From the NCBI RefSeq assembly GCF_026210795.1, contig NC_089429.1, positions 310,001-374,000 on the forward strand: a stretch of DNA of 64,000 nt, given 5' to 3'. The stretch is from Rhizophagus irregularis (lineage: Eukaryota). The translations under genes were made by a program, and so were the position numbers. The notes beneath the pieces were generated by a model, which was given only the letters and a program-made list of their open reading frames with translations, did not search any database and was not told where the DNA came from. Below are positions 2,112-35,523 of this stretch, one piece after another; position 1 is the stretch's first letter, and each line of letters begins with the position of its first letter.

Positions 2112-2633
2112 CATCAGGAAATTTGTTTAGGCATAATTTAGTGTAATATTTCGAAGGTGGTGTAAAATTTCGAAATATTACACTAAAAACGTAATATTAC
2201 AAAAGTTTACGCTCTTAAATTTGAATAATTATAGTAATTTAAGAATATCTCGCTATCTACTGATCCAATCAAGACGATCTATAGCTCATTGGAATCAGCT
2301 CATCAAGACGAATCGAATGGTAGTAAAATCTTATCTTTACGTTCGATAGATGATTTTCTATTAATTTAAAACTTTACTGCATACTATAGAGCGTTCTATC
2401 AACTGTAGAAATGCGATTTTACTACCATTCGATCCGTCTTGATGAGCTGATTCCAATGAGCTATAGATCGTCTTGATTGGATCAGTAGATAGCGAGATAT
2501 TCTTAAATTACTATAATTATTCAAATTTAAGAGCGTAAACTTTTGTAATATTACGTTTTTAGTGTAATATTTCGAAATTTTACACCACCTTCGAAATATT
2601 ACACTAAATTATGCCTAAACAAATTTCCTGATG
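2112..2633. mobile_element. Foldback MITE with ~220-bp near-perfect TIRs (CATCAGGAAATTTG...CAAATTTCCTGATG)
   Basis: 2112-~2330 is the reverse complement of ~2415-2633. Flanks CA/TA fit a 2-bp TSD with one change. Shares CATCAG termini with the 14228-19223 element. Confidence 0.9.
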
Positions 2634-3537: not shown

Positions 3538-3767
3538 AGAACCTTACTTACTTATAATAAAAGTTATCATAAAAAATTATCCCTTTTTTTAGAAAGTTTT
3601 GAATAAGCATATAATGTGTTGAATAACACTATGTGTTGCTTAACACTTTTTGGTGTTAAGCAATTATATATACTACTTAAATTATTTTAGAATGCCATAA
3701 TTATAATTTGAAATGCTGTAATTTATTTAGTTTATATGTAATTTACTATAGGCAATTTCTATTTGTA

Positions 3768-5909: not shown

Positions 5910-8177
5910 TAGGGTGTTCAGGATAAAGCGATCACACTTTTTTCGCATTTTTTGCCATTTTTTTCACATTTTTGGTGTGACCACATTTTTTGGCAAAATT
6001 TCACATTTTTCACACTTTCTGCAGTAAATTAGATTTGATTGGCTGTAGATCTTATAAATCGATCTATTTTTTTTTCGTACAATATAATCAACTTTTTACA
6101 AAGATGGTTAGCGCTCATGTACATTTATCTCAAAGTTCCATATATCGAGAAAATTATATTCTTCAAGGCAGTATATTGTGGTGTCGATTTTGTAATATAA
6201 AAGTTGACCATAAAATAAAATCCATTATCGATAAACATCTTCAAACTTTAAAACATGAAAATAATAAAAAAAATGCAAATAATTCTAATCATTTAATTCA
6301 AAGAACCATACCTTCATTAACTGGAAATACTTTGAATGAAAAAGAAAAAATTAATATTGAAGTTGTTGAAGCATTCACTTTTACAGATATTCCATTAGAA
6401 AAGATTGAAAAACTCAAACCATTTTTGATGAAATATTGTAAAAATGGTATGTAATTTTTTAATTTATGTAATATTTTAATTTAATAATTAATTAATGAAT
6501 TAATTATATTTTTAGGAGGGTTAATTACTAGAGCAAATCAGCTTCGTGAGAAATATCTTCCATTATCATATGAAATAGAACTTCAGAACTTAAAGAATAG
6601 TATTATTGATAAGATTATTTGTATAACAATTGACGAAACAACAGATCATTGTGGTCGTCATGCTGTTAATCTTTTATTTAGTTTTGATAATCAAACTAAA
6701 TTGGCCGGGACTGAATTTTTATCTATTGTAAATGCTTCATCTATTTCCCAATTTGTCATGGATACACTTCATTTTTACAAAATTCCTTACAAAAATATTA
6801 TTTTTTTTATATCTGATAATGCTTCTTATATGAAATTGGCATATTCACATTTATCTCCTTTTTTACCAAGAATGAAACATAATTGCTTAGCACATATTCT
6901 TAATTTGATTGGGTTAAACATGGGTTGATTTTAAAAAATTTGAATTAGTTAATAGATTGGTTGCGAATTTTAAAACAATATTTGTTTATAATTCACAAAG
7001 AAAAATTGTTAAGGAACATTATCAGCGAAATAATATCAATCTCCTACTTTAGCACCATTACCAGTAAAGACACGATGGAATTCATGATTCTCATTTTTAC
7101 ATTGGATTAAACCTTTATATCCTTATGTTATTACATTTATTAATGCAAAATATTCTATTAATCATGATTCAAAAGCTATTCAATACCTTAATACTTTTTG
7201 TCAACACCAAAATCATATTTTATATATTAGAATTTTTATTTGTTTTATTACATATAATTGTGGCAGGTAAGAGAAAATTATCAAAGTAATTATACAATTG
7301 ATAATGTTACTAATCATTTATTGAATTTAATTAGATTGGTTAATGATTTGGAATTCTTTAAAATACGAAATAAAGCAATAGCTTTATTTGTTTATTCAAG
7401 AATAGTTGGCCTTCAAGCTTTTCTTTCATCAGGAAGAAGCACTCCTCCAATTTCAAATGAATTAAATCAAATATTAGCTGAAGCAAATTGTAATGAGGAA
7501 TCATTTGCCATGATATTTTCTCAGGCTTTTTCTTTGGCATATGAAAAATGCGAAAAACACTTATCTCATCATCTAGCTTTATCATTATTTAGAGCAAAAC
7601 AATGCTTTGATCCAAGATTTATTCAATCTAATATAGCACATCATAATATGACAGATTATGGAATTATTGAAGTACTTCATTCTCCTACTGATAATTTAAT
7701 TCAAGAATGGGCTATTTATTGTGGGCTTAATGAATCAGTTGAGGAATTAATAGATTTAGATGTATATTGGCGAGGTAAAACACATTTATTACTAGAACTT
7801 AGTGCTTTAGCTTTAGTATATATTTGGTTACCAGTATCTGGGGTAGATGTTAAACGTAGTTTTTCTAGCTATAAAAGCATTTTATCAGATAAAAGGATTG
7901 CACTTAAAGAAGAAAGTATTCAGATGCTCAATTTTCTTTATTTTAATTTAGGTGGTAATGTTAATTATGATTTATTAGATAGCGAATAATTAAATTTACT
8001 GTATATGTTAATAAATAAAATAAATAAAATAATAAAATTTGCGCTATTATAATATTATTAACTCCGGCCAAAATTACACTAAATCTGGCCAGAATTAAAA
8101 TCACACCAAATCACACTTTTTGTCTAAATCACACCATACTTTTTGGGTCATCGTACCATGAAATCCTGGATATCCTA
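5910..8177 (+). mobile_element. hAT DNA transposon (decayed)
   Basis: TIR TAGGGTGTTCAGG / CCTGGATATCCTA, perfect 8-bp TSD AACTAATA and an internal transposase remnant. Confidence 0.92.
6104..7989 (+). pseudogene. hAT transposase pseudogene (CGGBP1/ZNF862-like N-terminal Zn finger, DDE core, dimerisation domain)
   Basis: Motifs LWCRFC...KHLQTLKH, IDETTD, SDNASYM, CLAHILNL, TRWNS* and VDVKRSFS. Intron at 6447-6515. Contains frameshifts and a premature stop. Confidence 0.85.
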
Positions 8178-9174
8178 AACTAATATAAATTTTATATAAA
8201 ATTAATAAAATAAAATAAAAAATTTATTTAATAAAATTTCATATAAAGAGTTATTCAAAAATTTATAAAATAAAAATGAATTATTAATAAATGTTTTATT
8301 ATATATGTTTTATTATATATATTGAATTCTCTTTAGTCGTATCATCTCAAAGAGAATTTCTATAAAAAATAATCAAAAAAAAACATTAATAAATATTTCC
8401 TGAAAAAAAATTAAAAAAAGGTAAGTTTTCTAATGAACAAAACTTACCAATTCAAGTTTTTGGCCAATTCAAAACTTCTGAAAAGAAAAAAAAAATGTCA
8501 GTAAATATTATTTCCTAATTTAAAAAATAAAAAAAATGGAAATTTCATGATAAAATATATAAAACTTACTATTTTTCCAATATTTTAAATTTCAGAAGTT
8601 GGCTGCTTACAAAAAAGAAAGGAAATATTAGTAAATATATTTTAAAAAAAAGTTAAAAAAAAATAAAGTTTCACAATAGATGTTGTAAAACTCATCATTA
8701 TATCTGAAGTTTGATATCTACAAAAAGAAAAAAAAAAGAAATGTTAGTATTGTTTTTTTAACAATAAAAAATTAAAGTTTCACAACAGATGATTTTAAAG
8801 TTTTATCTTTAAAATTCCATTTAGAAAATGTTTAGGAATCTGCAGATCTAAAAAAAAAAAAATGAAACATTAGTCACATTTAGTTAAAATAAATTAAAGA
8901 AAAATTATTTTAAAAATTTCATTTACCTTCAAAATTCTATCTATTAATTATTTAAGAAGCTGCAGACTTAAAAAAAATAAAAAATTAAAACATTAGATAT
9001 GTTTTATTAAAAACAAACAATTAAAAAAATTTTGAAGTTTACCTTCAAAAGTCTGTTTCATATAAGAATGGATCTGCAAATAATTTTCAAATTCTGCAAT
9101 ATTGCAGATTTTGGAGTTGAATTGCGGTTAGTAGCCCGCAATTCTTGCTGACCATAACTGTCAGTTTCATACAT

Positions 9175-9925
9175 TTATAAAAACGCTGGAACTATAGGTT
9201 CCGGCATTTCCTTTTAATTTTTTACGCTTTTTTTTTTTTAAAAACCACGCAAGAACTATGGGTTCTGGTATTTTCTTTGATTTTTTTTTACATAAAAATA
9301 CTAATACTATAGGTTCTGGCATTTTCTTTTGATTTTTTTTACATAAAAATGCCAGAATTATGGTTCCAGCGTTTTTTTGATTTTTTTTATATAAAAATGC
9401 CGGAACTATAGTTTCAGCGTTTTTTTTTGATTTTTTTTTACATAAAAACGCCAGAACTATGGTTCCAGCGTTTTCATTTGATTTTTTTTACATAAAAACG
9501 CCAGAACTATAGTTTTGGCATTTTTTTAATTTTTTTTTATGTAAAAACGCTGGAACTATAGGTTCTGGCATTTTTTTAATTATTTTTTATATAAAAATGC
9601 CAGGATAATAGGTTCTAGCATTTTTTTTTAATTTTTTTTTATATAACAATGCCAGAACTATAAATCTCGATGTTTTTATAAATTTTTTATATAAAAATGC
9701 TGGAACTATAAATTCCAACATTTTTTTTAGACTTTTTTTTATTAAAAATGCCAGAACTATTAGTTCTGGCATTTCAATTTTTATTTTTTTATATAAAAAT
9801 GCCAGAACTATTGATTTCGGCATTTTTTTTTAATTTTTATAAAAATGCTGGAACTATTATTTCTGGCATTTTTTTTATTTTTTTATTAAAATTGCCGGAA
9901 CTATTAGTTCTGGCATTTTTTTTTG
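9175..9925. repeat. Tandem array of about 15 hairpin units, ~50 bp each
   Basis: Unit is approximately ATAAAAAYGCCAGAACTATRGTTCTGGCRTTTTT followed by a T-rich spacer. Confidence 0.9.
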
Positions 9926-10580: not shown

Positions 10581-13500
10581 CTGCAATGTTTTGCAATACC
10601 GTAAATTGCAATTATTCTGCAATTACATATTTGTAGCACCATCCTTAGTTTCATATACACATTTTTTGTGAACTTCTAAATAGGTTTACAATTATCTAAA
10701 AGTATTATGCATGCATTATCTACAGAAATACTTTTAACAAATCTTGATTTAAATTGTTTATTGTTAAATGATATACATTCCAATTCTCAAGCCAATACTC
10801 TGATTCTACAAAAAGAATAAAGAAGATGTTAACAAACATCTCTTAATAAAAAATTGATTTTAAGTTTTAAAAAGAAAGTGAAACTCTTTAAAACTTACCA
10901 TATCTACTACCATATTTAAGATCTAAAGTCAAATATTATAAAAAAAAATTATAGGAAATATTAATAATGTTTTCTAAAAAAAACTAATTAGAAAAATTTT
11001 TTTTAAAAAATTTTTAAAATAAATGTCTTAAAATTTACCTTTTATTTTCCAAATCAAATATGTTAAGTCTTAAAAAAAAATTATAAGAAGCATTAATTTC
11101 CTAAAAAAAAAATAAAATAATATTTTTTTAAATATTTCAAAATATAGCATCACTTTAAAACTTACCATTTTTAATATTCTGGAATGAAAATAAGCTAAAA
11201 GATCTAAAAAAAAAAGGGAAATGTTAAAAACATTTTTTTATAAAAAAATAAAAATTTTTTTTAAAAGTTTGAAGTAAAATACTTCAAAATTTACCTTTTA
11301 CATTTTTTTGAAAGATCTATAAAAAATATAAAGAAAATGTTAAAATCGTTTTTTTATAAAAAAAAAATTTTTGTTTCAAAGTAAAATACTTTAAAATTTA
11401 TCTTTTGCATTTCCCATTTTCCAAAAAAAAGCCTATAGTTGGGGACACAACAAATCATCAAGTTGTTTCAAATTGAGATTTTAAAAAATCACGTGATATA
11501 CATAATACTAATTTGCGATTAGTTAAAAATCAAACTATATCGGGAAATGTTTTACTTTATTAATCATCAATATTTTCAAAAATAAAATCTGGAACAAATT
11601 TTTCACTGCTTTTTTCTTTTTTTAGCTATTTTTTGACAGTGTTGTGTTTGTCTCTTTAGTCGTATCATGGGAAAAAATTTTATGATCTGCATTACCTCTC
11701 AGCCAGTCATAGTTCTGGCCTAAATTATAGAATTTTGTCAAATTCTGGCCAGAATTAGATGTTTCAAATCCTACCGTTTATTAAGAAAATACCAAACTTT
11801 ATAGGCTAATAACTTTTGATCTAGATCACCAATCAGGATAATCTCAACTAAACATGGGGCCCGAAACCTCTATGAGGATTTCTGAAAGTTTCGGGTTTCA
11901 GAATATACGAATTGAAACTTCATCTGAAACCCTAAACTATTTCCAAAACCCGAAATGAAACCCGAAACCTGAAACTAGTTTCGGTTATCCCAAAACTAAT
12001 CCCGATACTCCGAAACTAATTCCGATTTCCGAAACTAATTCCGATTTCCGAAACTCTTTTTTATAAATTGATTGGATCAATTGGATCATCAATTCGTCAT
12101 TGTAGCTAAAAAAAGAGATTGATCATATTTGATAATCTTTTTTTTATAAGAATCAAGTCTTAAAAAAATGACGGATTGTACACCTTCAAATTCAAAAAAA
12201 AATAAGATTGCAATCTATGGCGGACGCCCAAAAAAGCCTATATGGAGATTTTTTGAACAAGGAGAGGAGATAGATAAAGGGCATTATATTGCAATATGTT
12301 TGGCTTGTAGGCAGACTTTCCGACCTGGAAAGACAACAGCTATGGAAAAACATATAATTAGTAATTGTTTAAAAGTAGACCATTCAATTTGTGAGGCCGT
12401 CATATATATGGTAGAAGCACGTGAACGTGAAATCTCTTCTGGTGCTAATATTAAACGCCAAAATAATGATCAAACTATTTTGGAAGATTTTTATGAAAGT
12501 TCAGATTTAAGTAAGGAACGAAAAGAAGATATTGATACAGCACTTATTAAGGCATTTGTATGTTGTGGTTTACCGTGGCATCTAGTTGAGCATCCATTTA
12601 TCATTGAATTATTTAAGCAACTTAGATCAAATTATAGTCTACCAGATAGGAAGACACTTGCTGATACTATGTTAACACAGGAAATCCTACGCGTTAATGT
12701 AAAGCTATATAGGTTGCTTGAAGAAGAGAGTAATTTAACACTAGGCAAGTATATTTATGCAAAAGTTATACAAAACTTAAAAATTTTAATATTAGAAATT
12801 TTTTTTTGAACTTTAATTAAGCCTTGGATGGCTGGACAAGCCCATCAGGGAAATCTCTCTGGAATTTTATTATTCATCTTGGCAATGGACGGGATATTCT
12901 TTGGAAAATTAGAGATTTTTCGGATGAAAGTCATACTGCTGAGTTTCTTGCTCAACAAATACAGTTAATTATTGAAGAAATTGGCATCCAAAAATTTGCG
13001 GGTATTGTAACAGATGCTGGATCAAATGTTCATTCTGCACGAAATTTAATTTCTGGAAAATTTCCACATATTCTTAACATTCGATGCATAGCGCATTCAT
13101 TGAATCTTATTACAAAAGATTTGATTAAACACACATTTGCAAAAAAAATTATTCAATGGTATTCAGTTATTGTGACATATTTTAAAAAGTCACATAGGCC
13201 TAAAGAACTATTAGAATTAAAAATTTTAGAAAAACAAATTGATGGGGGAGGATTAAAAACATATTTGGATACAAGATGGACAACTGTTTATGAAATGTTA
13301 AATTCAATTTCACGACTGGAATTGTGTCTCAAAGAAGTTGCACAACTTTTACTATTTGATTTTTTATTTTATAATAAACAAATTACATTGTTATTAATTT
13401 TAATTTTTTTTTTTATTAAATATTCTTATAGGTTATTAATGAAAACTCTACTATTATTACAAGTGAGGCAGTCAAAACTATTATTAATCGGAAACGTGGG

Positions 13501-14533
13501 TTTTTTAATGATGTCTATGATTTATCAAATGTTATGAAGCCTATTAGAGATGCTATTCTTAGTCTTGAAAGCAGTAATTCAACGCTAGCAGATTGCTATT
13601 TTTCTTTGGCGTGTCTTGGTCAATCAATTAACAAAATTTCTGAAAATGAAAATGTTAACTTTCGTCAGCATGCAATAAAATCTTTTAATGAACGTTTTAA
13701 AATGTATGATTTTGATGAATATCTCTTATCATATTATATTCACCCTGGTTATAGAGGTAAAAAAATTAATATTTATTATTTTAATAATGATAATATAGAT
13801 AGAAAATTAACAATTTTCATAATTAATAAATAGGTTCTGGTGTGAAAGCATGCCAATATCAAAGAATTCAAAGTGCAGCTGCACGTATTTGGCAACAAAT
13901 GTTAAAGATTTCTAACATTGCTGCTTACCTCAAAAAATTTAATTACACCAAAAAACAATCAGCAGAAATTCTTTTGGCGTAAATTGGTGAATTCTACTTA
14001 CAATCAGTACCATATAATACACCATATAATTCACAGGTAAATATACCACTTAGCTGATGGAAGATGTGTACACCTGTTCCGCCTTATTTACAACTGCTCG
14101 CAATCAAATTATTCTCAATTATTCCACATGCAGCTAGTTGTGAGAGGGTTTGGTCGATTTGTGGATGGGTGGTTGGAAAAAGGAGAACGCGATTATTAAC
14201 TGATAATTTAGAAGCTATAGCAAAAATCATCAGCAAGTTTTAAACAGGCGTATAAAGTGTTGAAAAATGCCATGTGTTGCTCAACGCCAAAAAACGTAGG
14301 GAAACGAAACGAACCCTTTGTCAATCAACGCTACTTAAAAACGTTTAAAACCGCATAAAACAACACCAATTTAAATGTAAAGCTACACGTAGTAAAACAA
14401 CAATAGTTTAAAAACGCGTATACAATGTATAAAAACGCGTATATTGATATTAAAAATGCGTCAAGCAATGGTTTTTTAGTCATCGTACAATAGTTAACAT
14501 TGTAGTATTAATTTATAAACATATATTTTATTG

Positions 14534-15389
14534 CAGTGTTCGGAAATGACCTGGTCATTTGACCATTTTTCGGATTAGGAGTCATTTGGTCAAATGACAC
14601 CCCATCATTTGGCATTTGGCATTTGAATTATTCGCGAAATGACAAATGCCAAATGATTGGGTATCATTTGACTGTCATTTGCGTCCTTTGTCATTTGGTC
14701 ATTTGTCATTAAAATATTTAAAGATTATTGGACAATTTATAATCACGTGATGTACAAAAAAGGAAGGACGTAATCAAAATAATCACAAACAGAAAAAATT
14801 TCACCGAATTATTTATTTTTTACTGTAATCTGAAAATAATAAATAACACAACCATAATTATTAAAGTGATAATATCTGATATGTTATTTATTATATATAA
14901 TTTTATTATATAATTATATGCATAAATAAATATTATGGCCATCTTATGATTAAATAAAGACAACAATTATATGTAAAAATGGGGAAAAATGGGATCCACT
15001 ACATGTGTTACAATTAAATATTTTATTGCAAAATTATTAACTTTTATCTGTGTGGATAAAATGATCATTGGTGAAATAATTACAAGTGAAATAATCCTGT
15101 CTATAATAATATTATTAACAAATAATAACCTGTAAAAATAATACCAAAATCACGTGATTAAAAATCTTTACTACTATTGGAACTTTTTTGATTATATATA
15201 TTAAACCAATTTTGTTTTAATATTTTTGTTTTCTTAATTAAAATAAACAAAATAATTAATAAAAATTCTCAGAATATTTAATATTTTTCAAATGACTTAA
15301 ATGACAGGTCATTTGAGTTGCAAATGACAAATGACAAATGACTTGTCATTTGAGTCATTTGTTCATTACAAGTCATTTGCTGAACACTG
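14534..15389. mobile_element. hAT-type MITE nested in the 5-kb element
   Basis: TIR CAGTGTTCGGAAATGAC / GTCATTTGCTGAACACTG, perfect 8-bp TSD TTTTATTG and GTCATTT subterminal repeats. Confidence 0.93.
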
Positions 15390-17179
15390 TTTTATTGTAT
15401 ATTATTAATATATATATTATATAAAATGTGTAAATTTATTTATGATAAAATACGGATATCGAATACTGAATATATTATCAATGTAAATTACTCTTGTTAT
15501 AATTGGATTGCCGCGGATTTTTAAGCGATCAATGTCTAAATTTCCGTTGACAAAGCGCACAGTGGCTTAGCGGAATATGAGGTGGGATGTGATTTTAACA
15601 ATCAACTAATTGATCTTTCTACGCGATAATTATATTAATATATATTGTCTAATGTAAATCTATATAATTAAATAAAAAAAAAAGTTTTCGAATATTCGAA
15701 AACAATTATTCCTAAAAAATGAAAGAAATGTTTAATTAGTAAAAAAATAAAAAAAGATGGTAAAGTTTCGCAATGAAACTTACCATTTTAAATTCTAACG
15801 CTCCTAATCGACACCTCGGAAGCCCTGAACCTATAAAAATAAAAAAAAACATTAGACAATGTTTTAAACTAAAAAAAATAAAGTTTCGTAATACGAAACT
15901 TACAATCCAATCAATCCAATTATCCCAAGTACCCGAAGCCTACAAAAATAAAAAAGAAAACATTAGTAATAATATTAAAAAATTGATAAAGTATCGCAAC
16001 ATTTTGTTGCGAAACTTACCTATCACCATCCGGAATTCAAAATATCCTGAAGCCTAAATAAAAAAATAAAGATAATGGAATGTTAATAACCTTAATTAAA
16101 AAAAATAAAAAAATGGAAGTTTCGTAACGAAAAAATGTTACGAAACCTACCATTTTATATTTCCAGAAACCAAACCTGCAAAAAAAGAAATGAAACGTTT
16201 AGTTAAACGTTTCTTAAAGAAAGAATTAAAAAAAAACTTACCGTTTTCCAAAATTCCAAATCCGGAAATCGAACCTACAAAAAATAAAAGAAACGTTCGG
16301 TTAGAACGTTTCTTAAAGAAAAAAAGATAAAAACGAAAGTTTCTTACGAAACTTACCGTTTAAAGTCCCTCTTCTTAAATTTCCCGAAACCTAAAAAAGA
16401 ATAAAGGAAACGTTAGTAAGAGTTTTCTAATAAAATAAAAAAAATATTATTAAGTTTCGTAACGAAACGAAACGTTACAAAACTTACCCAACAGTTCGTC
16501 CATTTTGAACTCTCCGATCCTACAAAATGGATAAAGGAAACGTTTAGTAAACGTTTCCTAATAAAAAATTAAAAAAAAAATTAAAAAATTACCCTTCGAA
16601 ACTTACAATATCCAAGATCCGAAGTTGAACACGCCGAAGGTCCTACACAAAGAAAATATAGGAAACGTTAGAAACGTTTCCTTATAAAAAAAAATGAAAA
16701 TTTTTTTTTTAAAAAGTTTCAAAGCAAAATGCTTCGAAACTTACCCTTTTCCCGGCCGTTTCCCAAAAAGAGACCTACAAAAAAAAATAAGATAAACATT
16801 AGAAACGTTTTCTTATAAAAAAAAATGAAAACAATTTTTTTTTAAAAGTTTCAAAGCGTAAAATTACGCTTTGAAACTTACTCTTTTTCCCGTTTCCCAA
16901 AAAAAAGACCTACAAAAAGAATTTAAAGAAACGTTAGTAAACGTTTCTTAAAAAAAAAATATTAAAGAATAAAGTTTCGCAACGTTTCGTTGCGAAACTC
17001 ACCATTTCGTCTACCCGAAAAACCCGTAGACCTACAAAAATAAGAAGAGGAGAAACGTTAGTAAAGCGTTTCTTAAAAAAAAAATTAAAACAATAAAGTT
17101 TCGCAACGGACTCACCTATTCTACCCAAAGTCGAAATCCCGTTTAGAAAACGTCTAGGAATTCGCAGACCTAAAAAAGA

Positions 17180-18190
17180 AAGAAAAATGAAACGTTAGTC
17201 ACGTTTCGTTAAAAAAAAATGAAAAGACAAATAATAACTCAAAAGCGTTAAAAAGCGTTTCGTTAAAAAAAAGAAAAAATAAAAAAATTGGAACGTTAAC
17301 CAGCGTTCCATTAAAAAAATAAAAAAAATTATATTACGAAACGTTAAAAAGCGTTTAGATTAAAAAAGAAAATCGGAGCGTTAGCGGCGTTTGATTAAAA
17401 AAATGAAAAAAAGTTAATACTTGAAAACGTTAAAAAAAGCGTTGAACAAAAAAAAATGTAAGCTAGAAACGTTGTAAGCGTTATTAAAAATGAAAAAAAG
17501 TTATTAGCGAAAGCGTTAAAAAAAGCGTTTCGTTAAAAAAAATGAAATAAAAAAAACAATCGGAGCGTTATCCACGTTAGATTAAAATTTTTTAAAAAAA
17601 CAATATTTGAACGTTTTTTAAGCGTTCCGATTAAAAATGAAATAAAAAAATTAAGAAAATGGAGCGTTAGCCGAACGTTCGATTAAAAAACAATATTTCA
17701 AGAGCGTTTTTCGCGTTCGATTAAAAATTAAAAAAATAATAAATCGGAGCGTTAGCAAAAGCGTTCCGATTAAAGAAATTTTTTTTAAAAAAAAACAATA
17801 TTTGAACATTTTTCAACGTTCGATTAAAAATGAAATAAAAAAATTAATCGGAACGTTAACGTCATTAAAAAAAACAATATTTCGTTAACGTTTTCAACGC
17901 CTGATCAAAAAAAAATAAAAATAATAAATTTCGAACGTTTTCAAACGCCTCGATTAAAGAATAAAAAAAACAATATTTCTTAAAAAATGAAATAAAAAAA
18001 TTAATCGAACGTTAGCTAACGCTCCGATTAAAGAAATCAATATTTGAACGTTTTAACGCTTAACGATTGATGAAATAAAAAAATTAATCGAACGTTAGCC
18101 AACGTTCCGTTAAAGAATTAAAAAAATAATATTTCGAACGTTAACGTTCATTAAAAATGAAAGAAAAATAATCAGAAAGTAGCCCGTTCC

Positions 18191-18244
<54 letters not shown>

Positions 18245-18400
18245 AAAAAAATAAAAAATAATCAACGCTTCGCAGACGAAATTTAAAAAATTTAAACGCA
18301 GCGTTACCGATTAAAAAAATTAAAAAAAAGAATAATATTTGAAACGTTACTAAAAAAGCGTTTCGTTAAAAAATGAAAGAGTAGTTTCGCAATGTTTCGT
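17180..18400. repeat. Degenerate tandem hairpin repeats (AACGTT/AGCGTT cores between A tracts), including a 49-nt A run at 18194-18242
   Basis: Repeated GGARCGTTAG..AACGTTC units fill predicted intron 1. Confidence 0.8.
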
Positions 18401-18529
18401 TGCGAAACTTACCAGAAGTTTGATACCTTCCAACTTTTTTCCGTATAAGGCTCATATCTCAGGAATTAATAACCTTATATTACGGAATTTACAGAGTTTT
18501 TACATGAATAACGGATAAAACTTTTTATA

Positions 18530-18780
18530 GGATGAAGGGGAAAACGAAAGGGTTATGGGAAAATGAAAGGGAAGGAGAGAACGAAGGGGAGAACGAAAGT
18601 GTAATAGGAAAACGAAAGGGAAGGGGAGAATGAAAGGGTTATGGGAAAACGAATGGGAAGGGGATAACGAAAGTGTAATAGGAAAACGAAAGGGAAGGGG
18701 AGAATGAAAGGGTTATGGGAAAACGAATGGGAAGGGGATAACGAAAGGTAATGGGAAAAACGAAAGAGAAAAAGCAAAAA
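18530..18780. repeat. Purine-rich repeat containing two tandem 74-bp units
   Basis: Units start at 18592 and 18666 (AACGAAAGTGTAATAGGAAAACGAAAGGGAAGGGGAG...). Confidence 0.85.
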
Positions 18781-18859
18781 AAATTAAGCTTTGCTAAAAA
18801 AAGCTTAATTTTTTTTTTGCTATACCACAGTGGCGCAGTGGTAATTATTAATCCAGTAT

Positions 18860-18874
18860 CACGTGACACACGTG
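18860..18874. promoter_or_regulatory. Paired CACGTG E-boxes; candidate promoter of the microexon transcript
   Basis: TCACGTGACACACGTGA lies upstream of the first donor on the minus strand. The same motif occurs upstream of several host genes here (22011, 22051, 25249, 41563, 55477, 56423). Confidence 0.45.
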
Positions 18875-20172
18875 ATATATCATTACATAAAATACGTAAT
18901 GCTTAATATTAATTTTAATAAATATTTATAATTGTACAATGGTTAGATCGTGAGATTTGATATATTAATAGTGTAATTGAGGTGAATCCGGTTCGGTTCC
19001 TAAGGTGAGTAAAAATAAATAAATTAATGTAATTTATTTAGTTGTGTTAATATACAGTGCGTTGAACTACACATTAGAGTTGAACGACGCGTATATTAAC
19101 ATTATGTGTTGGTATACTCCAGTATACGGGTGTTGATTAATATTGTAAAATGCGTTGAACAACTAGCTGGTGTTGATCAATGCGTATACTGGTGTGAATC
19201 AACACTTTTCAAACTTGCTGATGATACATTCTTATTATATTGCCAATAGTAGATCTGAATTACCTAATTATAGTAAAGATCGAACTGCTGATGAACTTTG
19301 CGCAATTTTAAATGATGCTAATCTTTGTGATGATGATGAATATGTTGATGATTATAACGAAGAGAAAATGATAAAGTTGGTGTCAAGTCCACCTGTTGAT
19401 GATGATCGTGAACAAGTTCCATCTCAGAATTTGGAAATTTTACAAGTGCTAGATCTGGATTTAATGTTTAGAGATAATTTAACCGATAAGCAATTAGAAT
19501 TAGATGGGATTGGATTTTATTCAAGAGTAAGAGTAACAAGACGATTTTGATCCAGATTTATTGGTTCAAAATTTTAATTCATAATTAATATAATTTTATG
19601 TAAATATGTAATAACGTTTAAATTAGTATAGTATTCATATATAATATAATTTTAGTTATAAATATTAATAAAATTTAGTAAAATAACATAAAGTTTCGGT
19701 TATATTTCGGTATATAAGTTTCGGGATAGTTTTGGGATAGTTTCGGGTTTCAGATTTCGGAAAATAAATGCATATTCTGAAACTAAGTTTCGGTATATAC
19801 CTAAACCTAAAGGGTTTCAGGGAGTTTCGGTTTCATATCCCATGTTTAATTTCAACGCCATTTTGTAGTTTAAGTTAGTAACAATTAAACTATGTTGAGT
19901 TATTTTAAATATATGCATTCAAAATATTTTTATTAAATTTCTAATTTGGACAATTTTATTTGATGAATTGTTATGTCTCAAACCATACAAAAAAAATATA
20001 AAGGAAATATTAAAAGTATTTCCTTATAAAAATAAGAAATTTTTTTCAAAGCGAAATATTTCAAAACTTATTTTTTGTTATTTTTCTAAAAAAATTATAA
20101 AAAATATAAAAAAAAACGTTAGAATCATTTTCTTATAAAAAAAATGAAAATTTTTTTTTTTTGAAGTAAAAT

Positions 20173-20398
20173 AAGACCCCGTCTACTATTAAAATAGGTT
20201 ACTTTATGGTCTAAAGTAAGGTTTACATATAAAACTCTTTGAAGATCTTACTATAAAAAGAAATTTTATGTTACATTGTTATGATTTTTTTTCCTTTTTA
20301 GTCAATTAACCAATAGAATTTAAGCAAATCCTAAGGTAAGATTTCATATGAAAGTGAAATTTCTACTGGTAACATATCTTAGTAGTAGGTGGGGTCCT
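20173..20398. mobile_element. Degenerate AGGACCC-type MITE
   Basis: AAGACCCCGTCTACTA / TAGTAGGTGGGGTCCT with imperfect 8-bp TSD AGTAAAAT/AATAGAAT. Confidence 0.65.
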
Positions 20399-22010
20399 AA
20401 TAGAATACTTTAAATTTATAATTTAAGAAATGAAAAAAATAAAACTCTAGAACTATTTACAGAAAATGTAAATAATTTGATAAATTTTGTGATATAATGT
20501 TAATTCTAAAAATATGAGCCTTTTGCAGAAAAAAATGGAATATAAAAAATGAAAAAATAAAAAGTAAAGGACAAAACAAAAAGATAAGAAGAGGAGAGAA
20601 TGAAAAGAGAAGAATGAAATGAAAAGAAAAGAAAGAATAAAAAAAATTAAGATTTGTTAAAAAAAGCTTAATTTTTTTTGCTATACTGCAATCCACCTTG
20701 GTAATTATTAATCTAGTATCATGTAATACATGTGATATAGAGTACATTATATAAAACACATAATGCTTAATATTAATTTTAATAAATATATATATACTTA
20801 AATTAAATAGTACAGTGATTAGATTGTAAAATACGATATTGTAAGTTAAGATAACTAGCTCAATTTTTAAGGTGAGTAAAACAAATATTATATAAATACA
20901 TATATATATTGTATATAAAAATAAATAAAATAAATACTGGTAATATTGTAAATTATGTTGAATATACCCAATCAGCATAATTTTACTAAATGATTTTAAA
21001 GGGACAATTTTTTGTATAACAATTAGCATAAGTTAAATTTTTATCAAAAGACTAAACAAATTTTATTTAATAATCAGTATTAGTTAATTTGTGATTATTG
21101 ATTTTACCAATTTTTGCCATTGATTAAAAAATCTAATAATTTACATAACCAATCAACAAAAATCATTTTATAAGTTTTTAATAATTAATTCACATAACCA
21201 ATTGGCAAAAATCATGCTAAAAGCTCTTAATGGTTAAAAGTTTTGATTTTGACTAGTGAAAATATGAAAGAATGTCTAGTTATAATATAGGATTTACTCT
21301 AAAAGTAAATAATATTTTTGATTTTTAATAAAGTTACTGATTTTTAAAGAAACAAATTTAGTTTGTACAAAGAACGAATTTATTTTAAACTAGAAATTCA
21401 AGTTTTTTATTTTAAATCCCTTACTGTATATAAATAAGTTTTTTCAGAATATTATTATATAATTAATAGAGTTGTGCAACTCAACAAATTTTCTATTCCA
21501 TATGATCTAAAAGTATTTATCACTGGTATTACATCTTACTGCATTTTCACTGTTTATATTTATTTAAACTTTAAAGGACTTAGTTTTTTTTTTTACCACC
21601 AAAATTATTTTTTTCATATCCTTTTAAATGTTACCAGTTAATACATCAAATAAATTTTAATTATAAAAAGACAAATTTATTCTAAACTAGAAATCCAGCT
21701 TTTTTATCCTAAACCCCCTATATAAATAAGTTTTTTCAGAATAACCATTATGTAATTAATACAGTATAGAATAAGAACCCAGTCAAGCCGGTTAAATGAT
21801 ATTGAGTATGATATATATATATCATACTCAATAACTATATTAAGTCTATTTTAAGGACACTTTTTTATATAAATAATTAGTTTAAATAATTTCTATTAAA
21901 TTTAATATTTTATTGGTTGACTGGTAATACGGGTTACCAATGACTTTTTCCCTTATATCATATAGCTTTTAAAACAACTTTTTTAAGCCGCAAAAAAAGT
22001 CGACCCAAAT

Positions 22011-34416: not shown

Positions 34417-35523
34417 CAGTCAACTCCCTCTATAGTCACTCCCGTTATAGTCACATTCTACTATATAGTCACACCAGTTGAATGTTCAAAACACTTTATT
34501 ATTAAAAACTATCCTATATAGTCACAATCTATCTATAGTCACTATCACACCTATCCTCAAAAATCTTATATTAAAAAGAACCGTTTATAATCACAGTTAT
34601 ATAAAGAATATATTAAATAACTTGGCATCTAATAATCGTACAAAGATGTATCATAGCTTGTTAGAATCGTCTCACTGAGACGAATCGAATGGTGGTAGTT
34701 ATATCCTTTTCCGATCACTGGCTGATGAGTTATTCAACAAAATGTTAAGCATCAGCATTATTATATTTCTTAATTTATGTTTATTGCGCCATTTAACATT
34801 TTGCTAAATTACTCGGTACCTAGTGATTGTAAAAATACGATTAATAACTCGTTGGAATCGCCTCATCAAGACGAATCGAATGGTGGTAAGCTCATCTCTC
34901 TGTGATCAATATTGACGGAGTTACTACTTAAAAACCATTTAATATTTTTTAATTTCGGAAATTGATCTAGTGATTGGATTTCGATGTATCTTATACCATT
35001 AGATTCGTCGCATTAAGACGAATCGAATGGTAGTAAGATTGTCACTTTAGGATCAATATTGGCAGAGTTATTACACAAAAACCATTAATATTTTTTTAAT
35101 TTCGGAAATTAATCTAGTGATTGAATTTCGATGTATTTTATACCATTAGAACCGTCTCATCAAGACGAATCGAATGGCGGTAAGATCGTCTCTCTAAAAT
35201 CAATATTGGCAGAGTTATTACACAAAACCATTAATATTTTTTTAATTTCGGAAATTAATCTAGTGATTGGATTTCGATGTATTTTATACCATTAGAACCG
35301 TCTCATCAAGACGAATCGAATGGCGGTAAGATCATCTCTCTAAGATTAATATTGGCGGAGTTACGATACAATAAAGTTTTGAGTATAATTTTGGCTAAAA
35401 TTATGTTAATTTTTGGCCGGAATTATGATATACTTATATAAGAAATTTTTTATATAGTCACATCTCTTTATAATCACCAAATATGGACTGTCCCAAATGT
35501 GTGACTATAAAGAGAGTTGACTG
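34417..35523. mobile_element. pogo/Tc1-like non-autonomous element with internal ~147-bp repeats
   Basis: TA|CAGTCAACTC...GAGTTGACTG|TA, TATAGTCAC subterminal repeats and five palindromic-motif units. Confidence 0.9.

What the first reader, a model, noticed from the sequence alone, without database searches (positions are those of the whole stretch)
15750..18412. Array introns carry two covarying hairpins over the 5' splice site and the branch point
Seen on the minus strand, donors begin stem-loops: GTAAGTTTCAAAGCGTAATTTTACGCTTTGAAACTT (16846-16881), GTGAGTTTCGCAACGAAACGTTGCGAAACTT (16972-17002) and GTAAGTTTCGAAGCATTTTGCTTTGAAACTT (16714-16744). The last needs a G-U pair that works only on the minus-strand RNA. 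Inner stem sequences differ between introns while pairing is kept. A second hairpin, AAGAAACGTT-TACT-AACGTTTCTT (~16926-16949, variants at ~16535 and ~16660), contains the full TACTAAC branch consensus. A few introns, such as 16176-16241, lack the donor hairpin. Inference: these are structure-regulated splice sites, or structured introner-like introns that could yield stable intron RNAs or hairpin small RNAs.
Basis: partly seen in the sequence, partly recalled or inferred. Interest (0 to 1): 0.82.

Follow-up and report, generated by a model that had tools for sequence, protein, structure and literature searches.

The report
Transposon-borne palindromic intron array, mycorrhizal fungus
A 5-kb transposase-less Plavaka-type DNA transposon in a mycorrhizal fungus carries a run of 13 intron-like units with paired CpG-rich hairpins that fold about equally well on both strands, so they likely act as DNA palindromes that may help the element avoid silencing rather than as RNA splice switches, and splicing itself remains untested.

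Summary
The hairpins are real: 10 of 13 donors and 8 of 13 branch regions fold at z<-2, against 1 and 0 of 14 control introns. Inner stems covary across related arrays. G·U and A·C pairs are balanced, both strands fold alike, and about 17 extra copies in intron 1 favour the opposite strand. The array lies inside a 4,996-bp element (14228-19223) with 13-bp inverted ends (CATCA..TGATG) and a 2-bp target duplication, inserted in a hAT transposase gene. These are PlavakaB features (PMC12730594), and no transposase is encoded. Similar arrays occur in 57 soil-metagenome loci: five carry such an end, one lies beside a Plavaka transposase fragment. Splice signals are strand-specific and kept while exons diverge; exons appear non-coding. 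CpG o/e is 3.0, against 0-0.4 in three decayed copies. Best reading: a tandemly amplified, probably spliced non-coding cassette whose palindromes likely work at DNA level. Splicing was not shown. No earlier scan finding matched.

The parts
14228..19223 (.). Non-autonomous PlavakaB-type (CMC/EnSpm-related) DNA transposon, 4,996 bp including a nested MITE
   Evidence: 13-bp perfect TIR, CATCA..TGATG ends, 2-bp target duplication; features as in PMC12730594; no Plavaka transposase hit inside
14228..14240 (+). Left terminal inverted repeat (3' end relative to the array), followed by an AACG-rich subterminal region to about 14530
   Evidence: homologous ends in L063/L064; same terminus in L009
19211..19223 (-). 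Right terminal inverted repeat (5' end relative to the array)
12150..14227 (+). Host hAT transposase gene, part before the insertion; it continues at 19224-19550
   Evidence: DUF659 hit; the frame runs across the insertion only with a 2-bp duplication
14534..15389 (.). Nested MITE with 8-bp TIR match and 8-bp target duplication (hAT-like), inserted later into the element
17170..18412 (-). Unit 1: 1,243-nt intron-like segment with a donor hairpin and about 17 tandem AACG-core palindromes, AG-poor (13 vs 34.7 expected)
17032..17115 (-). Unit 2: donor hairpin partly missing, branch hairpin present
16910..17002 (-). Unit 3: both hairpins, full TACTAAC
16775..16881 (-). Unit 4: 15-bp donor stem, weaker branch stem
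16643..16744 (-). Unit 5: both hairpins; tandem duplicate of unit 4 (period about 131)
16520..16606 (-). Unit 6: branch hairpin only
16391..16487 (-). Unit 7: donor hairpin only
16275..16356 (-). Unit 8: short donor stem, branch hairpin
16176..16241 (-). Unit 9: branch hairpin only
16054..16150 (-). Unit 10: donor hairpin only (GTAGGT donor)
15940..16019 (-). Unit 11: donor hairpin only
15831..15903 (-). Unit 12: donor hairpin, weak branch stem
15712..15783 (-). Unit 13: short donor stem
18534..18875 (-). Predicted promoter region: pyrimidine-rich 37-nt tandem repeats (18534-18770), palindrome (18773-18821), two CACGTG boxes (18860, 18869)
   Evidence: promoter role inferred
8350..9060 (-). 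Decayed, CpG-free copy of the array (6 units)
10800..11430 (-). Decayed copy of the array (5 units)
19950..20900 (-). Decayed copy of part of the array plus the upstream palindrome region

Best explanation
The array is the interior of a non-autonomous PlavakaB-type DNA transposon: tandemly duplicated intron-plus-short-exon units that are likely spliced from a non-coding transcript, and whose CpG-centred hairpins likely work as strand-symmetric DNA palindromes, possibly binding sites for a protein of the autonomous partner that would keep the element unmethylated. Shown: element ends and target duplication, tandem origin, covariation, strand symmetry, one-strand splice signals, no conserved frame, and CpG excess lost in decayed copies. 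Inferred: transcription from the 18534-18875 region, splicing, protein binding and the anti-silencing role (by analogy with VANDAL/VANC motif arrays and TET/JBP-carrying PlavakaB elements).
For: Element: 13-bp TIR, 2-bp TSD, host hAT frame open across the site only with a 2-bp duplication; PlavakaB termini and TSD per PMC12730594 passages. 5 of 57 array loci (L009, L056/L076, L063/L064; about 3 independent) carry a matching 13-nt end. L076 has a Plavaka transposase fragment about 0.7 kb upstream of an array on the same strand. Strand symmetry: G·U vs A·C 13:9 and 9:9 in 149 clustered metagenome units, 3:0 and 0:1 in the window; anchored counts 26:18 (p=0.29) and 24:23; sense vs antisense better in 22 vs 18 of 96 donor hairpins and 12 vs 55 of 94 branch hairpins; the short array's sense-antisense energy gap (-66) is within shuffles (-77±9). 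Intron 1: 17 palindromes without splice sites, A·C 20 vs G·U 3, p=0.0005. The AACG core occurs at 29/kb in the left subterminal region, 30-60/kb in the array and 2.8/kb in the rest of the window. CpG o/e 3.0 vs 0.0, 0.26 and 0.42 in decayed copies. Splice signals: GT at 73 of 85 palindromes on the sense side vs 9 on the mirror side; YTA loop end 111 vs 27 of 135; downstream YAG 124 vs 21 of 135. All 26 GT/YAG are intact here, while 7 of 22 are lost in two decayed copies (by eye; p=0.002).
Against: The hairpins sit exactly over the donor +3 onward and the branch A, which a DNA-site model explains only by descent from one founding intron. Inner donor stems show a small non-significant G·U excess in three overlapping counts (9:3; 17:8, p=0.11, and 26:18). 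CpG richness may only reflect youth. 52 of 57 array loci show no such terminus, though most contigs are short. In L063 the TET/JBP gene lies outside the element's end. The right subterminal region is only modestly AACG-rich (11/kb). No binding, methylation or splicing data exist for this copy.
Confidence: 0.5

Rival explanations
1. RNA-structure control of splicing: stems hide the U1 and U2 sites, slow or stall splicing of the element's non-coding RNA, and could feed RNAi as stalled spliceosomes do in Cryptococcus, or yield stable intron RNAs.
For: Stems of -10 to -19 kcal/mol overlap both signals; covariation above all 500 shuffles for score and cells paired in both alignments; splice signals kept on one strand; slight G·U excess in inner donor stems.
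Against: No significant G·U preference, and about 1% G·U in X-drop stems; antisense folds as well or better; 5 of 13 units lack a strong branch stem and 3 of 13 lack a donor stem; only 11 of 96 donor stems extend over the GT.
Confidence: 0.22
2. Neutral by-product: one intron-exon unit with two short palindromes was amplified by tandem duplication, and arm-to-arm copying (template switching) keeps the arms matched without function.
For: Strand symmetry; double changes at CpG on both arms seen (5 CA/TG and 2 TG/CA); tandem periods; units with lost hairpins and acceptor-only units in L020 and L039.
Against: Units are 66% identical on average with exons near shuffle level (0.51 vs 0.47), yet all 26 GT/YAG are kept here; the architecture recurs in several sub-families with different ends.
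Confidence: 0.2
3. Introner-like mobile introns that inserted one by one into a pre-existing sequence.
For: Related introns between mostly unrelated exons; fungal introner-like elements are symmetrical (PMC8469720 passages).
Against: Two local hairpins instead of end-to-end symmetry; neighbouring exon-intron units are co-duplicated; 13 of 14 control introns in the window lack a donor stem at z<-2.
Confidence: 0.05
4. A micro-exon protein-coding gene.
For: The predicted spliced product has a 101-codon stop-free run; 11 of 2000 base shuffles reach it.
Against: 464 of 2000 exon-order shuffles reach it; exon lengths are 3n in only 5 of 12 here and 38 of 88 in relatives; paralogous exons differ by 1-2 nt; stops are rare in all frames because exons are A-poor.
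Confidence: 0.03

Closest known systems
PlavakaB DNA transposons, CMCT clade (PMC12730594, passages read); Plavaka reported as prevalent in R. irregularis (PMC11075540, passages read)
   Same: CATCA..TGATG termini, 2-bp target duplication, short TIRs; a Plavaka transposase fragment lies beside one related array
   Different: Non-autonomous; the interior is an intron-like palindrome array. Passages read mention no such array, and three 10-nt motifs of it were absent from the one supplementary file held (long runs in that file were cut).
VANDAL/VANC anti-silencing motif arrays in Arabidopsis (PMC10398659, passages read)
   Same: Fast-evolving tandem repeats with a short motif in non-coding parts of a DNA transposon
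   Different: Different superfamily; here the motifs are CpG-centred palindromes tied to splice signals, and no binding protein or demethylation has been shown
Fungal introner-like elements and symmetrical sister stwintrons (PMC8469720, passages read)
   Same: Sequence-related U2 introns with inverted repeats; splice signals on one strand only
   Different: Those are scattered in exons of host genes with terminal symmetry; these are tandem units with two local stems inside a transposon
Stalled-spliceosome-triggered RNAi of transposons in Cryptococcus (as cited in PMC6643885, passages read)
   Same: Transposon RNA whose introns might splice poorly in a fungus with active RNAi
   Different: No small RNA or splicing-efficiency data here

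Membership tests
PlavakaB transposon | 5'-CATCA..TGATG-3' termini with TIRs | tested here: met
   13-bp perfect TIR at 14228 and 19223; definition
PlavakaB transposon | 2- or 3-bp target site duplication | tested here: met
   AT on both sides; of 0-4 bp tested, only 2 bp gives an open host frame
PlavakaB transposon | Encodes a Plavaka (PF18759) transposase | tested here: not met
   tblastn of 49 Plavaka-like proteins hit only L076, not the window; hence a non-autonomous derivative
PlavakaB transposon | Dispersed copies with the same ends in the genome | tested here: inconclusive
   No genome held; matching ends in L009 and L063/L064, related end in L056/L076; decayed internal copies in the window
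U2 spliceosomal introns | GT donor, YTRAY branch, pyrimidine tract and YAG on one strand | tested here: met
   13 of 13 GT and YAG, 12 of 13 YTAAY; strand asymmetry in relatives
U2 spliceosomal introns | Removed from RNA | tested here: inconclusive
   None of 15 listed joints (6 more not shown) matches a unit; reads were mostly from other copies, and 25-54-nt exons are hard to bridge
RNA-selected structure | Compensatory covariation | tested here: met
   related rows can inflate these controls
RNA-selected structure | Preference for the transcribed strand (G·U over A·C) | tested here: not met
Introner-like elements | Copies inserted at unrelated sites in host genes | tested here: not met
   Window only: 14 control introns; genome-wide test not possible
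Mirtron or snoRNA host introns | Donor-to-acceptor hairpin, or match to a known small-RNA family | tested here: not met
   Folds give two short local stems; 0 of 23 weak Rfam matches reach the gathering score
VANDAL/VANC-like anti-silencing array | Element-encoded protein binds the motif and removes methylation | not testable with these tools
   Only indirect: CpG o/e, motif shared with the left end, TET/JBP genes near 2 arrays

The most novel reading that the evidence does not exclude
Glomeromycotan Plavaka transposons carry a purpose-built anti-silencing cassette: a non-coding transcript packed with a dozen or more real introns that makes the element look like a host gene, with CpG palindromes placed over each splice signal so that methylation state, binding of an element-encoded protein (transposase or TET/JBP helper) and splicing are coupled.
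Probability: 0.2. Interest if true: 0.78.

Novelty: new variant of a known kind. Interest (0 to 1): 0.48.

Why it matters
About two-thirds of R. irregularis repeats are unclassified (PMC11075540 abstract), and this assigns a conspicuous repeat type to Plavaka elements. If the introns are spliced and the palindromes bound or hypomethylated, it would be a fungal case of a transposon using a non-coding intron and motif array against methylation or RNAi, testable with existing nanopore methylome, small-RNA and long-read RNA data. It also shows that covarying hairpins over splice sites need a strand test before being read as RNA structure.

Tried and rejected
No whole genome is held, so copy number and host-gene introns were checked in the window only. 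Rfam: 0 of 23 weak matches reach gathering. The viral-contig scan gave 1 chance match in a coding region. The run search listed no RNA holder, which is no evidence either way. Four raw-read runs of the same species label laid 574, 668, 456 and 657 reads, 88-95% running on into unlike sequence; reads cover intronic positions on both strands; none of 15 listed joints is a splice of a unit. This is inconclusive. Contig-level RNA evidence could not be obtained, so splicing stays open. Coding rejected. Exon hairpins are not beyond composition (mean z -0.59 sense, -0.54 antisense). The 5-nt end motif alone is too short to be informative. Scan look-ups found nothing near, nothing by words, and one unrelated archaeal note sharing 3 of 109 words. 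One search stopped on a script error and was rerun. Of 84 metagenome stretches, 80 were fetched; 57 of 81 loci passed the array filter, 24 were dropped; many kept loci overlap or are near-identical.

Full report
Observation. On the minus strand, 13 units begin with GT(A/G)(A/G)GT and end in a pyrimidine tract plus YAG. One is 1,243 nt (17170-18412) and twelve are 66-107 nt, separated by 25-54-nt spacers. The quoted hairpins are at the stated places and beat all 200 shuffles. By energy z-score, 10 of 13 donor regions and 8 of 13 branch regions are below -2, against 1 and 0 of 14 intron-like controls from the rest of the window. A cruder stem score did not separate branch regions from controls. 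The full TACTAAC occurs in 3 of 13 units (by eye). A window protein is identical to one labelled Rhizophagus irregularis, so the host is an arbuscular mycorrhizal fungus.

Relatives. A pattern scan of metagenome contigs gave 84 stretches, 80 fetched. 57 of 81 held loci passed an array filter and gave 206 distinct units, or 149 clusters at 90% identity. Many loci overlap, and the pattern itself selects for an outer donor stem. Covariation is real. The first three inner positions pair 2.40 of 3 within a hairpin against 1.52 between hairpins (0 of 5000 shuffles, 47 segments). In ungapped alignments of all 20 30-nt hairpins and 13 31-nt hairpins, 91% and 90% of cells pair, 6 and 4 of 12 pairs change on both sides, and 0 of 500 shuffles reach the covariation score. 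Relatedness can inflate these controls.

Strand test. G·U against A·C was 13:9 (donor) and 9:9 (branch) in the clusters and 3:0 and 0:1 in the window. Anchored counts gave 26:18 (p=0.29) and 24:23, and 17:8 (p=0.11) in the two alignments; inner positions alone gave 9:3. Folding favoured sense in 22 and antisense in 18 of 96 donor hairpins, and sense in 12 and antisense in 55 of 94 branch hairpins. The short array folds better on the minus strand by 66 kcal/mol, but unit-wise shuffles give 77±9, so that gap is composition. Intron 1 holds 17 further AACG-core palindromes without splice sites; they show 20 A·C against 3 G·U on the minus strand (p=0.0005) and fold better on the plus strand (+33 vs -5±9). 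The stems therefore behave like DNA palindromes. A weak RNA contribution at donor stems is not excluded.

Splice signals, in contrast, are one-sided. Palindromes found without using the GT have GT at the donor position in 73 of 85 cases against 9 at the mirror position; branch loops end in YTA in 111 against 27 of 135; a YAG follows in 124 against 21. Window introns average 66% identity and exons 51% (shuffled 47%), yet all 26 GT/YAG are intact, whereas two decayed copies in the window have lost 7 of 22 (by eye; p=0.002). This suggests selection for splicing during the family's history (inference). Raw RNA reads of the same species label gave no splice joint among 15 listed, were mostly from other copies, and covered intronic positions. 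Splicing is not shown. The exons appear non-coding: a 101-codon run is matched by 464 of 2000 exon-order shuffles, though by only 11 of 2000 base shuffles, and exon lengths are not frame-preserving.

Context. Similarity to L063 downstream of the array led to the element's ends. 14228-19223 has perfect 13-bp inverted repeats beginning CATCAG, flanked by a duplicated AT, inside a hAT transposase gene whose frame is open across the site only with a 2-bp duplication. PMC12730594 (passages) defines PlavakaB by CATCA..TGATG termini and 2-3-bp duplications. No transposase lies inside; an 856-bp MITE with an 8-bp duplication is nested at 14534-15389. Five of 57 array loci, about three independent, carry a matching 13-nt end on the expected side. 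L076 has a Plavaka transposase C-terminal fragment upstream of an array on the same strand. TET/JBP genes lie downstream of arrays in L033 (just under the Pfam cut-off) and L063 (above it, but outside the element end). The array has CpG o/e 3.0; the decayed copies have 0.0-0.42 and the host hAT gene 0.68. The AACG core is about tenfold enriched both in the array and in the left subterminal region, and less at the right end. R. irregularis methylates most transposon loci at CG (PMC8647823 passages).

Mechanism. Shown: a non-autonomous PlavakaB-type element; tandem amplification of intron-exon units; covarying, strand-symmetric CpG palindromes; one-strand splice signals. Inferred, about 0.5: the element makes a spliced non-coding RNA and the palindromes are DNA-level sites, in the manner of VANC-bound tandem motifs in VANDAL elements (PMC10398659 passages), helping intact copies stay unmethylated. 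Rivals: RNA stems that slow splicing, perhaps feeding RNAi as in Cryptococcus (PMC6643885 passages), 0.22; neutral amplification with arm-to-arm copying, 0.2; introners, 0.05 (PMC8469720 passages); coding, 0.03.

Novelty. Ten literature searches (listings only, plus the passages named above and PMC11075540) showed no description of such an array. The library lacks most subscription papers and Repbase. The one supplement searched has long cells cut, so an existing entry cannot be excluded. Verdict: new variant of a known kind, interest 0.48.

Noticed in passing
window 2112-2633: A 522-bp element with 199-bp perfect inverted repeats beginning CATCAGGAAATTT, the same start as the terminus upstream of the array in L056/L076; a second likely PlavakaB-type miniature element.
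   Followed up: partly
window 3591-3663: Decayed match (80% over 54 nt) to the element's left end hairpin region, without the array.
   Followed up: no
window 8350-9060 and 10800-11430: Decayed copies have lost almost all CpG and also show many non-CpG G-to-A changes on the array strand, suggesting a strand-biased or RIP-like decay (read by eye).
   Followed up: no
window 9230-9925: 14 copies of a 51-nt tandem unit with an internal palindrome, next to a decayed array copy.
   Followed up: no
window 19003-19056 (+): A plus-strand GT..AG intron-like segment near the element's right end, also present in the decayed copy near 20870; possibly a divergent transcript.
   Followed up: no
L020, L039 (array flanks): Long runs of units reduced to pyrimidine tract, AG and exon, with no donor or branch hairpin.
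   Followed up: no
L076 800-6000: Two diverged arrays tail to tail as a large inverted arrangement, the second downstream of a Plavaka transposase fragment.
   Followed up: partly
window 5981-7989 and 12150-14227: Two hAT-type transposase genes; the region 2-21 kb is a nest of DNA transposons.
   Followed up: partly
window 34855-35363: 3.5 copies of a 147-nt tandem repeat, 88% alike.
   Followed up: no
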